From positions 5,518,001-5,582,000 of the forward strand of contig CM074518.1 of NCBI GenBank assembly GCA_037379345.1: DNA of 64,000 bases, given 5' to 3'. A program made the position numbers. The DNA is from Perna viridis. Lineage: Eukaryota. Of this stretch, positions 1-3,000 are shown in pieces (position 1 is the stretch's first letter; each line of letters starts with the position of its first letter).

Positions 1-3000
1 TTGAAACCAAGTTCCGAGAGATGGAGAAAACAGTGAAACTCTTCACTAAAAATGTACAGACCTATGTGGATCAACTACAGGTAATTTAAGGCAGGTTTAA
101 TCTGTAACAGAAAGTTTTTAACTAGAGTGGTCTTTTTGATGGCAACCCAAGTTCTAGTACACTTTGGACAACTTGTCTGTGAGCCGAGTTATTCCATTTA
201 TTTGGATACAAAATTAGTTCACTTTACATTCAATTTGTTTTTCTTATTTGGAACTATTCAGTCATTAAGCCTGCACTAAATTCATAGATTTGTTAAACTT
301 CGAATGGATGTAACTTACTGTAACATTGAAGTCAGGCTGTTGGTGCTTCTGATGTAACTAAATTAATGTTCATTACCATTATGAGGACTTCATCATCTAT
401 TAGATAAATATACAGTGAAAAGGATAGGTGTAGACTTGTCCATAAAAATTGTCTTTAAAAATGTGTAAACGTCAGGACTGATCAGTTAAGCTCCTCTTTG
501 TAGGAAAAACTTTCACTATGCTAATCACTTCTTTGCTGAGCAGTGTTGATAGGAGTACTATTATCAAACCTGATATATTTCTGTTTTTTCAAACCTGATT
601 TTAACAGTTATGATCCTTGTTTTTGACTTTGACAATGTCCACTATGTTAGTGTTATAAACTAATTATGTGTACTGTTACCATTTAACCATTCCTGGCCGT
701 GTCACACTAAAGACTTTTGAATTGGTATTCATTGCTTCTCTGCCAATCACACTGTATTTAGGGTGACGATTGGTTTCCTTAGAGTTAGAATAATGTGTCC
801 AGTTGGGTAAGATGCCTACCTGTGAGCTGTTACTTCTGTGAGCTAACACAATTAAGATCTAGTTCAGCATGTTGGACTACACCAGAAAGTTGCAACTTGT
901 GTTTTCATATGTTTCAAAACATATAGAAACATGTGTAAAACCACAATGGACATACACCAACTTTTGCACTTTAAAACTCACGAACTGCATACTTTGCTCC
1001 AATCCAAGTGAAACTTATGCCTTTAATGATTGAAATTACAAACCTTTATATTTCAAGAAGCCTTCAGTTGTCATGAAGGAGTTGTGATTGACCTCGCTGA
1101 TTACTATGATGATAAACCTTTATATTACAGGAAGCCTTCAGTTGTCATGAAGGAGTTGTGATTGACCTCACTGATTACTATGATGATAAACCTTTATATT
1201 ACAGGAAGCCTTCAGTTGTCATGAAGGAGTTGTGATTGACCTCGCTGATTACTATGATGATAAACCTTTATATTACAGGAAGCCTTCAGTTGTCATGAAG
1301 GAGTTGTGATTGACCTCACTGATTACTATGATGATAAACCATGTCCTGAAATTAAACGCTACCAACAGGTCTACCAAGTCATTCAACAAGAATATCTTGT
1401 AGAATTTGTAAGTTTGATTTATTTTATACTGCAACCTATCCTGTTTCAGCTGAATTAAATGTTAAATGTATTGACAATGCAGTTTTACTGTGAAGTAAAC
1501 ATTTCATTGTTTCAAAGTTGTTAAGATGTTGACATCTCCTGGTCAAAATCATTGCATTGATTTTTTTAATTGTATTCTGCGTTGAATTCACAAAAAATTT
1601 GGTGTATAAATTCTGTGAAAAACTGATGGAATGTTTCCCACAGCCTAACATTTTTCAATGGTTCTAAATTCTCTAGTTATGGTTTTGTTTATTGACTGGT
1701 ATATCACCTCAGGTGTAAGTTATGACCTTTAGGTCATTAGAAGAAAAACAAGCTATTTTTAGACATTTTTTCATTTACTACATAATATGATTTAAGCTTT
1801 TGATATGATGGACAGAGCTATTTGTTTTTGAATAAGATTTGACTTAGTTGATAATGCAGCACTATAAACTTATATTGCTGAAGTCTCAGGGAATATTTTA
1901 GACTCCTATAAAATATGCTGTGTATTTGCATTAAAAGTTAACAATCACTTCCTAACTGCATACATTATTTCTGAATTAAACAGGACATAGCTGACATTTC
2001 AGTTTAATTTTTTCAGACTCATAAAGGAACAAATAGATTTAAAATCTGATTTAGTTGAAATATGATTGTTATAGCTCTAGCTGTACAATCCTGACAAATG
2101 TCTTATACTTATGTTGGAATGTAAAATGAAGTTCAAAGATGAGTTTATAATATGTTTGCAACTGTTTCTTTCAGACCTCCACAGTTAAAGATGTAGTGAT
2201 AGCACCACTCAATAAACTCATTGTCTTATTTAATGGTCCCAATAAAGTTATACAGAAGAGATTTGACAAACTACTGGACTTTGATTCAATGCAGAGAAAG
2301 GAAGAAAAGGTACAGTGTATATATATAAAAAAACAGATTTAAACCTCTTTTTACTTCCTCTGTGGTTTTGTGGTAGCATGCTTCTTTGCCAAACATGTGG
2401 CATACAGGGGATAAAGATTTAGCTCAGCCAGAGAAAACATGATATCTGGTTTGTCTGTGAGCTAGCACAATAAAGATCTAGCTAAGCTGGAGAAAACATA
2501 ACATCTGGTTTGTCTGTGAGCTAGCACAACAAAGATCTAGCTAAGCTGGAGAAAACATGACATCTGGTTTGTCTGTGAGCTAGCACAATAAAGATCTAAC
2601 TCAGTCTGTTAGATTAATACAAAGAAGGATCAGTCCAATTAACAAAATATTCTCATCCTTAAATACTTGAAATGCCTGTCATAAGACATAAAACCACAAT
2701 TAATCAACTAATTTGTCAGACATAAGAGCAACTGTTATGAATTGGCCACTGTGGTGTTCTTGGCAGTTTAAAGTAACTTTTTTTCCTTTTCATCATGGAT
2801 ATGGTATACTGTGAAGGTACTTTAATTTGTGAATACCAATTATTGTGGATTATTGTATTCGTGGTTTTGAGGTTTTCAGTATACACATCATTGGGATTCT
2901 CCTGTTTGGTAGGAACAATATTTCTTGATTTTGCCTACCCATGAAAACCATGAAAATTGGCACCCCACGAATAATAGTACTTTCACAGTAACACCAAAGG

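What the first reader, a model, noticed from the sequence alone, without database searches (positions are those of the whole stretch)
1040..1407. Four-fold tandem duplication of a DNMBP splice acceptor; only the last copy is productive
Seen: a 74-bp unit (17 nt intron end plus 57 nt exon start) is present 4 times. It is bounded by an aaacc microhomology shared by intron and exon. Copy 1 has caa instead of cag. Copies 2-4 have identical tattacag|GAAGCC acceptors. Because 74 is not a multiple of 3, acceptors 2 and 3 run into TGA, and only 1279 keeps the BAR frame. A g/a/g/a SNP pattern implies 74-bp then 148-bp duplication steps. Inference: the spliceosome must skip two identical upstream AGs and use former exon sequence as branch region. 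This could be a splice-dosage VNTR coupled to NMD, or exon sequence becoming intron.
Basis: partly seen in the sequence, partly recalled or inferred. Interest (0 to 1): 0.72.

Follow-up and report, generated by a model that had tools for sequence, protein, structure and literature searches.

The report
Splice acceptor repeated four times
In a mussel-like animal's DNMBP (Tuba) gene, a 74-base piece spanning the end of an intron and the start of an exon is repeated four times, so three extra look-alike splice sites sit ahead of the only one that yields the normal protein; it is most likely a young mutational accident.

Summary
TRF finds a 74-bp unit, 4.1 copies, 97% matches, at 1040-1340. The copies differ at three unit positions only. 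Each unit is 17 nt of intron end plus 57 nt of exon start. An AAACC word lies at both ends of the array.

Only the acceptor before 1279 gives an open exon. The other three candidate exon starts meet TGA. Named Mytilus DNMBP-like proteins run from the exon ending at 80 straight into 1279-1407 without a gap.

Three corrections apply:
- Copy 1 keeps an AG shifted by one base.
- The G/A difference lies in a CpG, so the 148-bp duplication step is not forced.
- The window is bivalve-like, not human.

The AG-free zone before 1279 is 47 nt and lies in former coding sequence, which holds a consensus-like branch heptamer at -30.

Best reading: a young slippage product that lengthened the intron by 222 nt and left decoy acceptors whose products would carry early stops.

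The regulatory "splice-dosage" reading has no support. No RNA data, reads or related genomes could be consulted.

Closest analogue: the human F7 intron-7 minisatellite, which is on the donor side (PMC1557585).

The parts
3..80 (+). 3' part of a BAR-region exon of the DNMBP-like gene. The window starts inside it. Its donor is GT at 81-82, phase 0.
   Evidence: Aligns with M. californianus P0111 residues 1195-1220 (81% identity) and M. trossulus P0112 residues 1244-1269. The donor reads gtaatt.
81..1278 (+). Intron, 1198 nt as it now stands. Its last 239 nt (1040-1278) belong to the tandem array, and 222 of these nt are added copies.
1040..1340 (+). Tandem array of a 74-bp unit, 4 copies plus AAACC. 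The copies are 1040-1113, 1114-1187, 1188-1261 and 1262-1335, with AAACC at 1336-1340.
   Evidence: TRF period 74, 4.1 copies, 97% matches, score 574. Copy comparison.
1021..1027 (+). Branch-like heptamer CTTTAAT in the native intron. Its A is at 1026, 31 nt before the shifted AG of copy 1. It is the likely original branch site.
   Evidence: Match to YNYTRAY. Inference only; no lariat data.
1056..1057 (+). AG of copy 1, shifted by one base by the substitutions at 1053 and 1056. An exon starting at 1058 meets TGA at 1085-1087.
1129..1130 (+). Decoy acceptor AG of copy 2, identical to the productive one over the whole unit. An exon starting at 1131 meets TGA at 1233-1235.
1203..1204 (+). Decoy acceptor AG of copy 3. 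An exon starting at 1205 meets TGA at 1307-1309.
1243..1249 (+). Branch-like heptamer CGCTGAT in the ex-coding part of copy 3. Its A is at 1248, 30 nt before the productive AG. The same motif is at 1095-1101 and, as CACTGAT, at 1169-1175, each 30 nt before the next AG.
   Evidence: The AG-free zone before 1279 is 47 nt. Inference only; no lariat data.
1277..1278 (+). Productive acceptor AG, in copy 4.
   Evidence: It is the only candidate that gives an open exon, and it restores collinearity with relatives.
1279..1407 (+). 129-nt exon (43 codons, phase 0 at both ends) of the BAR region. Its first 57 nt are the exon part of copy 4.
   Evidence: Aligns with P0111 residues 1221-1263 and P0112 residues 1270-1312 without gaps. 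The donor reads gtaagt.
2175..2309 (+). Next exon (45 codons).
   Evidence: BAR profile positions 118-161, E 7.5e-6, below the curated cut-off for this piece alone. 82% identical to P0111 residues 1264-1308. AG and GT ends.
4020..4205 (+). Exon (62 codons).
   Evidence: The stop-to-stop frame 3915-4217 that contains this exon matches BAR profile positions 172-228, E 3.8e-6, just below the curated cut-off. The exon itself is 82% identical to P0111.
4894..5103 (+). Exon (70 codons).
   Evidence: 79% identical to P0112 residues 1420-1480. Splice sites.
7213..7408 (+). Exon that ends in phase 1. It aligns where relatives carry their fifth SH3 region.
   Evidence: 64% identical to P0112 residues 1492-1561. 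No Pfam match for the piece alone.
7790..8049 (+). Linker exon.
   Evidence: Aligns with P0112 up to residue 1647. Splice sites.
9240..9419 (+). Last coding exon, the C-terminal SH3 domain. The stop codon is at 9417-9419.
   Evidence: SH3_9 E 2.4e-14. 83% identical to P0112 residues 1649-1706, which is that protein's end.

Best explanation
The window begins inside the BAR-domain part of a bivalve (mytilid-like) orthologue of DNMBP/Tuba.

At the 3' end of the intron that follows base 80, a 74-bp segment was multiplied in tandem to four copies. The segment is the last 17 nt of the intron plus the first 57 nt of the next exon. The most likely mechanism is slippage or unequal exchange between two AAACC words that lay 74 nt apart, one in the intron and one in the exon.

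The last copy is still joined to the rest of the exon. The three upstream copies have become intron, which is now 222 nt longer.

Only the acceptor before 1279 gives the conserved protein. To use it, the spliceosome has to take its branch site from what used to be coding sequence. The likely site is CGCTGAT, with its A 30 nt upstream.

The upstream copies offer two identical acceptors, each with the same branch-like motif, and one acceptor shifted by a base. Splicing to any of them yields an early TGA, and such mRNAs would probably be removed by nonsense-mediated decay.

I read the array as a young, probably polymorphic, neutral to mildly harmful structural variant. Productive mRNA comes from the last acceptor, and an unknown share is lost to the decoys. 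I do not read it as a regulatory device.

Shown: the array, the frames, the stops, and collinearity with relatives. Inferred: the mutational mechanism, the branch site, the share of each acceptor, and NMD.
For: - Array and copies.
- The unit occurs only in the array: 4 of 18 blastn-short matches are full length and all 4 lie in the array.
- Frames and stops.
- Collinearity: in all 6 relatives examined (3 unnamed representatives, 3 named bivalve proteins), the exon ending at 80 and the exon 1279-1407 align to adjoining residues with no inserted copy.
- The seven exons downstream of base 80 that lie in the window are open, have GT-AG ends, and run on to the relatives' C-terminus. The gene is therefore not decayed.
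- The AG-free zone before 1279 is 47 nt, so under the scanning rule the branch site must lie in copy 3 (rule from passages of PMC1431707). A strict YNYTRAY match sits at -30.
- Youth: three variable positions in 4 x 74 nt.
- No recursive 5' site is regenerated. The bases after each acceptor are GAAGCC or AAGCCT.
Against: - No RNA evidence of any kind. Which acceptor is used is unknown.
- The branch-like heptamer is weak evidence. 458 of 3308 AGs in the window have one at -18 to -40, and 222 of 3308 have one plus an AG-free stretch. Only 3 of the gene's 7 acceptors in the window have a strict match at -10 to -60.
- Acceptors 2 and 4 are identical over the 74 nt upstream and 62 nt downstream of the exon start. 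Their would-be exons (203 and 277 nt) fall within or close to the size range of the gene's other complete exons in the window (129-260 nt). Nothing local favours the last one.
- The discussion of PMC1557585 reports classical globin constructs with duplicated sites that spliced only at the proximal copy, and another group with opposite results.
- The repeat acceptors have the poorest pyrimidine tract of the gene: 9 of 17, against 11-15 of 17.
- Copy number could be an assembly error.
Confidence: 0.6

Rival explanations
1. Hypomorphic or null allele. The structure is real, but the upstream acceptors capture most splicing because they are transcribed first and carry identical signals. This haplotype would then make little functional DNMBP and would be a segregating harmful variant.
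For: - Acceptors 2 and 3 are identical to the productive one and have the same branch-like motif at -30 and the same downstream exon sequence.
- The discussion of PMC1557585 summarises globin experiments in which only the proximal copy of duplicated sites was used.
- The native branch-like site at 1026 still faces an AG at 1056-1057.
Against: - The rest of the gene in the window is intact. This is weak evidence, because the array is young.
- Both substitutions private to copy 1 hit its acceptor core. The chance is 0.005 if they were independent and 0.08 if they were one event. This would fit pressure to blunt a decoy, but it is post hoc and rests on two bases.
- The same paper notes that another group got opposite results with duplicated sites.
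Confidence: 0.2
2. Assembly artefact. The true genome has one copy, or fewer copies, and the array was inflated during assembly or polishing.
For: No reads were available, so this could not be tested. Bivalve genomes are highly heterozygous (recalled, not from a call), and that makes assemblies error-prone.
Against: - The copies are not identical. They carry a consistent pattern of three differences, which a simple expansion error would not create.
- Unit boundaries fall on a 5-nt microhomology, as expected of a real duplication.
- The window has other ordinary tandem arrays: 14 TRF rows in all.
Confidence: 0.1
3. Regulatory splice-dosage VNTR. Copy number sets the share of transcripts diverted to decoy acceptors and NMD, and so tunes DNMBP output under selection.
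For: The architecture would allow it: decoys with early stops that have seven exon junctions downstream. Junction-spanning minisatellites exist, such as F7 intron 7 (PMC1557585). A passage in PMC5941971 mentions a FAM20C VNTR at an intron-exon junction said to affect alternative splicing (primary paper not held).
Against: - The array is very young, so there is no conservation and no sign of selection.
- In F7 the extra sites are silent rather than regulatory (abstract).
- Predicted RNA structure is no stronger than in shuffles: z = 0.31, and 60 of 100 shuffles fold at least as well.
- Tandem arrays are common in this window, so an accident is the simpler account.
Confidence: 0.05

Closest known systems
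Human F7 intron-7 37-bp minisatellite, whose first unit spans the exon 7-intron 7 junction (Borensztajn et al. 2006, PMC1557585; abstract and discussion read)
   Same: A tandem array whose unit holds an exon-intron junction, so that one splice site is present in several identical copies. Only the copy that adjoins the exon gives the normal mRNA. The other copies lie in the intron.
   Different: - F7 multiplies the donor, and the productive copy is the most upstream one. That fits 5'-to-3' choice.
- Here the acceptor is multiplied, and the productive copy is the most downstream one, behind the decoys.
- In F7 the silence of the pseudo-sites was shown by 50 constructs. Here nothing is shown about use.
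- F7 is polymorphic with five to nine sites. Polymorphism here is untested.
Intron gain or intron sliding by tandem duplication (Hellsten et al. 2011, PMC3265369; Lehmann et al. 2010, PMC2891723; passages read. A potato RdRp case, PMC4974935, was seen only in the search listing)
   Same: A local tandem duplication turns former coding sequence into intron without changing the encoded protein.
   Different: Those cases duplicate an exonic AG|GT proto-splice site and create a new intron the size of the duplication. Here no new intron arises and the junction reads AG|GA. An existing intron is lengthened at its 3' end, and its position in the protein is unchanged.
Scanning from the branch point and the AG exclusion zone (Gooding et al. 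2006, PMC1431707; passages read)
   Same: [quoted passage not shown]
   Different: That work concerns distant branch points with long AG-free zones. Here each repeat unit carries its own short zone, so four complete 3' modules compete.
NAGNAG tandem acceptors (PMC3250501; abstract in the search listing only)
   Same: Two or more acceptors in tandem at one exon start.
   Different: NAGNAG sites lie 3 nt apart, share one branch site, and differ by one codon in frame. Here the spacing is 74 nt, each site has its own branch-like motif, and the upstream sites are out of frame.

Membership tests
DNMBP / Tuba orthologue (gene identity) | BAR domain followed by two C-terminal SH3 domains | tested here: met
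   BAR profile pieces: the stop-to-stop frame 3915-4217, which contains exon 4020-4205, gives E 3.8e-6, and exon 2175-2309 gives E 7.5e-6. Each is just under the curated cut-off, as expected of single pieces. SH3_9 at 9174-9419, E 2.4e-14. The exon 7213-7408 aligns with the relatives' fifth SH3 region but has no Pfam match of its own.
DNMBP / Tuba orthologue (gene identity) | Collinear with proteins named dynamin-binding protein | tested here: met
   All 3 proteins found among 48 candidates carry DH, BAR and SH3 Pfam domains. Two are named dynamin-binding protein-like (Mytilus), and the third is named Dynamin-binding protein by UniRef (Tegillarca). Eight window exons align in order up to the C-terminus of P0112.
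DNMBP / Tuba orthologue (gene identity) | N-terminal SH3 domains and a DH (RhoGEF) domain | not testable with these tools
   These parts would lie upstream of the window, which starts at about residue 1195-1244 of the relatives.
Junction-spanning minisatellite that multiplies a splice site (F7 intron 7 type) | A tandem array whose unit contains an exon-intron junction | tested here: met
   The unit is 17 nt of intron end plus 57 nt of exon start, in 4 copies. The exon part is homologous to the relatives' protein.
Junction-spanning minisatellite that multiplies a splice site (F7 intron 7 type) | The repeated splice sites are identical in sequence | tested here: met
   3 of 4 acceptors are identical from -17 to +39; the units first differ at unit position 57, which is +40. 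Copy 1 differs at -4 and -1.
Junction-spanning minisatellite that multiplies a splice site (F7 intron 7 type) | Copy number varies among individuals | not testable with these tools
   No reads, no other assemblies and no animal genome collection were available.
Junction-spanning minisatellite that multiplies a splice site (F7 intron 7 type) | Only the exon-adjacent copy is used and the others stay silent | not testable with these tools
   No RNA data. Word-index searches with the exon 1279-1407 found no protein that could come from a transcript of this species.
[quoted passage not shown] | The duplicated segment holds an exonic AG|GT, so that a new donor and acceptor bound a new intron | tested here: not met
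   The junction in the unit is AG|GA. No new intron arises. The intron's place between the relatives' residues is unchanged.
Conserved unproductive splicing coupled to NMD (regulated AS-NMD) | The stop-bearing splice event is conserved among species and is regulated | not testable with these tools
   No related genomes or RNA data. The copies differ at 3 positions in 296 nt, so the array is too young to show conservation.
NAGNAG tandem acceptors | Acceptor AGs 3 nt apart that share one branch site | tested here: not met
   The spacing is 74 nt, or 73 nt from the shifted AG of copy 1.

The most novel reading that the evidence does not exclude
This may be a natural acceptor-side mirror of the F7 minisatellite. 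The spliceosome would routinely pass over two fully equipped, sequence-identical upstream 3' splice modules, plus one shifted by a base. It would pick the last module, using a branch site recruited from former coding sequence.

That would show 3' site choice set by the link to the downstream donor (exon definition) rather than by order of transcription or by local signals. Copy number could then set how much DNMBP transcript leaks into decay.
Probability: 0.12. Interest if true: 0.6.

Novelty: new member of a known kind. Interest (0 to 1): 0.33.

Why it matters
If the array is real and the allele works, it is a ready-made natural experiment on 3' splice-site choice. Four near-identical acceptor modules stand in a row, and only the last is productive. 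That is the opposite geometry to the well-studied F7 donor array.

It also catches coding sequence at the moment it turns into intron and supplies a branch site.

If the decoys win, it is simply a harmful structural variant in a gene for a Cdc42 exchange factor. That role for DNMBP is recalled, not from a call.

In both cases it warns gene annotators that tandem repeats at junctions can derail gene models.

It does not open a long-standing question, and it rests on one assembly without RNA data.

Tried and rejected
- **Dispersed element.** Rejected. The unit occurs only in the array, and its exon part is homologous to relatives' protein.
- **Known RNA family.** No Rfam match at gathering score in the whole window.
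- **RNA structure that loops out the upstream copies.** Folding 1000-1420 gave -84.3 kcal/mol against a shuffle mean of -85.95, z = 0.31, and 60 of 100 shuffles fold at least as well. No support.
- **Upstream copies as an in-frame coding insertion.** Rejected. Every upstream start meets TGA, although 3 x 74 is a multiple of three.
- **Recursive splicing through the decoys.** Rejected. No GT follows any acceptor.
- **Transcript-derived or same-species protein across the junction.**
  - Word-index searches with exon 1279-1407 found nothing. The longer-proteins search had 1 candidate and none scored. The near-length search had no candidate.
  - The best relative of exon 4020-4205 is 82% identical, so this species' own protein seems absent from the collection.
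  - The exhaustive search with that exon gave 110 hits at E <= 0.001, the best at 56% identity.
- **Ancestral state of the G/A site.** Relatives have V, I, D or E there. Mytilus V would make Ala (G) one step and Thr (A) two steps away. This is only a weak hint that G is older.
- **Papers not held.** Simpson 2007 on FAM20C and Kuhne 1983. Their content is known here only through passages in PMC5941971 and PMC1557585.
- **Search for an acceptor-side junction minisatellite in print.** Searches found none apart from the FAM20C mention. These are exact-word searches of open-access text only.
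Full report
**What the window is**

The window has no N, 32.5% G+C and a CpG observed/expected ratio of 0.37.

Its plus strand from base 1 to 9419 carries the 3' part of a gene. Single exons of this gene match the BAR and SH3 profiles.

The best named relatives are the dynamin-binding protein-like proteins of Mytilus californianus (P0111) and M. trossulus (P0112). They are 82% and 81% identical over exon 4020-4205. 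A Tegillarca granosa protein is 68% identical. These were all 3 proteins scored among 48 candidates.

Elsewhere the window holds C1q-domain reading frames.

I therefore take it for a bivalve, close to but not within Mytilus, and not for human.

All searches were made exon by exon.

**The observation**

Tandem Repeats Finder gives one array at 1040-1340: period 74, 4.1 copies, 97% matches, no indels, score 574. That is the top score of 14 rows in the window.

The copies start at 1040, 1114, 1188 and 1262. AAACC opens each copy and recurs at 1336-1340, where the exon continues differently. The array is thus 4 x 74 + 5 nt. This is what a duplication between two AAACC words 74 nt apart would leave.

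The copies differ at three unit positions only:

| Unit position | Copies 1 / 2 / 3 / 4 |
|---|---|
| 14 | T / A / A / A |
| 17 | A / G / G / G |
| 57 | G / A / G / A |

Outside the array, the unit finds only 10-12-nt chance matches. Of 18 blastn-short matches, 14 are of that kind and 4 are the full-length array copies. The array is real in the sequence and far beyond chance.

**Frames**

The exon that ends at 80 closes on a full codon before gtaatt. In that phase the candidate exon starts behave as follows:

| Exon start | Result |
|---|---|
| 1279 | 43 open codons up to gtaagt at 1408 |
| 1205 | TGA at 1307-1309 |
| 1131 | TGA at 1233-1235 |
| 1058 | TGA at 1085-1087 |

Exon start 1058 follows the AG that copy 1 keeps, one base downstream of the homologous place. 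But copy 1 carries two changes, and it still offers an AG.

**Homology test of the productive site**

I aligned six relatives to the window by tblastn.
- Three came from the exhaustive search with exon 4020-4205. That search gave 110 hits at E <= 0.001, 7 at <= 1e-10 and none at <= 1e-30. I took the three best-scoring hits longer than 700 residues: P0001, P0003 and P0008.
- The other three are the named bivalve proteins.

In all six, the exon ending at 80 and the exon 1279-1407 align to adjoining residues. For example, P0111 residues 1195-1220 are followed directly by 1221-1263. No relative has an inserted copy.

The first two aligned residues that tblastn adds upstream of 1279 come from the intron tail. 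They match by coincidence.

The alignment then continues through 2175-2309, 4020-4205, 4894-5103, 7213-7408, 7790-8049 and 9240-9419. It ends at the C-terminus of P0112. Every exon is open and has AG and GT ends. So the gene is otherwise intact, and 1279 is the only acceptor that restores the conserved protein.

**Where the branch site must be**

The nearest AG upstream of the productive one leaves an AG-free zone of 47 nt.

[quoted passage not shown] AGs within about 12-15 nt of the branch point can be bypassed (passages of PMC1431707). Under that rule, the branch site for 1279 must lie inside copy 3, in sequence that was coding before the duplication.

A strict YNYTRAY match, CGCTGAT, lies there with its A 30 nt upstream. 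The same motif precedes acceptors 2 and 3 at the same distance. A native one, CTTTAAT, precedes the AG of copy 1 by 31 nt.

- 458 of 3308 AGs in the window have such a motif at -18 to -40.
- 222 of 3308 have one plus an AG-free stretch.
- Only 3 of the gene's 7 acceptors in the window have a strict match at -10 to -60.

The repeat acceptors also have the poorest pyrimidine tract of the gene: 9 of 17, against 11-15 of 17.

**What distinguishes the last acceptor**

Locally, nothing does. Acceptors 2 and 4 are identical from 74 nt upstream to 62 nt downstream of the exon start.

The would-be exons of 203 and 277 nt fall within or close to the range of the gene's other complete exons in the window, 129-260 nt.

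Predicted RNA structure of 1000-1420 is no stronger than in shuffles: z = 0.31, and 60 of 100 shuffles fold at least as well.

No GT follows any acceptor, so stepwise recursive splicing is excluded.

The only difference is the distance to the donor at 1408.

The discussion of PMC1557585 notes that globin constructs with duplicated donor or acceptor sites spliced only at the proximal copy in one laboratory and gave opposite results in another. So the share of each acceptor cannot be predicted from the sequence.

**History**

But the site is a CpG (CG versus CA) in a CpG-depleted window. Two independent transitions are therefore a fair alternative.

Relatives carry V, I, D or E at that codon, which does not settle the direction.

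Both substitutions private to copy 1 hit its acceptor core. For three independent substitutions, the chance that at least two fall in the -4 to -1 bases of the three upstream acceptors is 0.005. If the two are counted as one event, it is 0.08. This is post hoc and rests on two bases. It is compatible with pressure to blunt the decoy that still faces the native branch site, and equally with drift.

Three variable positions in 296 nt mean the array is very young.

**Most likely account**

The array is a slippage or unequal-exchange product that turned 222 nt of duplicated intron end and exon start into intron. It left decoy acceptors ahead of the productive one. Decoy use would give early stops with seven exon junctions downstream, so decay of those mRNAs is expected. 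That expectation is inference from the general NMD rule, recalled and not from a call.

I rate this at 0.6. The rivals are:

| Rival | Rating |
|---|---|
| The decoys win and the allele is a hypomorph | 0.2 |
| Assembly artefact | 0.1 |
| Selected splice-dosage device | 0.05 |

**Comparison with what is known**

The closest case found is the human F7 intron-7 minisatellite. Its first 37-bp unit spans the exon-intron junction, so five to nine identical donors follow each other and only the first is used (PMC1557585, abstract and discussion). The present array is its mirror on the acceptor side. The important difference is that the productive copy comes last, not first.

Intron gain by tandem duplication of an AG|GT proto-splice site (PMC3265369 and PMC2891723, passages) shares the step 'coding sequence becomes intron'. 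Its defining feature is not met here.

A review-type passage mentions a FAM20C VNTR across an intron-exon junction (PMC5941971). The primary paper is not held.

Four exact-word searches of the open-access library found no described acceptor-side array of this kind. That is weak evidence of absence.

**What stayed unchecked**

- No reads, no RNA data and no animal genome collection were available.
- It therefore stays unchecked whether the array exists in other individuals or species, and which acceptor is used.

Noticed in passing
window 2411-2598: A second tandem array (59-bp unit, 3.2 copies, 93% matches) lies in the next intron of the same gene, 1 kb downstream of the finding. Local tandem duplication seems frequent here.
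   Followed up: no
window 13392-13739 (-) and 16477-16875 (-): Two reading frames match the C1q domain (E 5.6e-10 and 1.2e-7). Long frames at 19307-19783 and 19849-20301 (-) have no Pfam match. They may be further parts of such genes.
   Followed up: partly
window 23357-25463 (-): A run of broken reading frames. One of them (23921-24217) matches reverse transcriptase RVT_1, E 4.2e-8. This is probably a decayed retroelement. Similar-looking frames at 30173-31334 (-) gave no Pfam match.
   Followed up: partly
window 15510-15788, 26070-26336, 30928-31197 (+): Three reading frames with visibly similar translations, seen by eye. They suggest a dispersed repeat family in the window.
   Followed up: no
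window 37605-37835 (-) and 46406-48253 (-): A LIM-domain exon (E 1.8e-6). Upstream of it on the same strand lies a 615-codon open frame built of several similar segments of about 70-80 residues (by eye). That frame has no convincing Pfam match: only DUF4167 at E 0.006, below the cut-off. The two may belong to one gene.
   Followed up: partly
window 49345-49536: A tandem array of a 26-bp unit, 7.1 copies, 90% matches.
   Followed up: no
window 61081-62067 (-): A 328-codon acidic open frame with no Pfam match. It contains an in-frame 33-bp tandem repeat at 61165-61256 (2.8 copies).
   Followed up: no
window 1273-1278 versus 75-80: The last five bases of the intron (TACAG) equal the last five of the upstream exon. 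tblastn alignments therefore run two residues into the intron tail of every copy. This is a coincidence that could mislead protein-based gene finders.
   Followed up: yes
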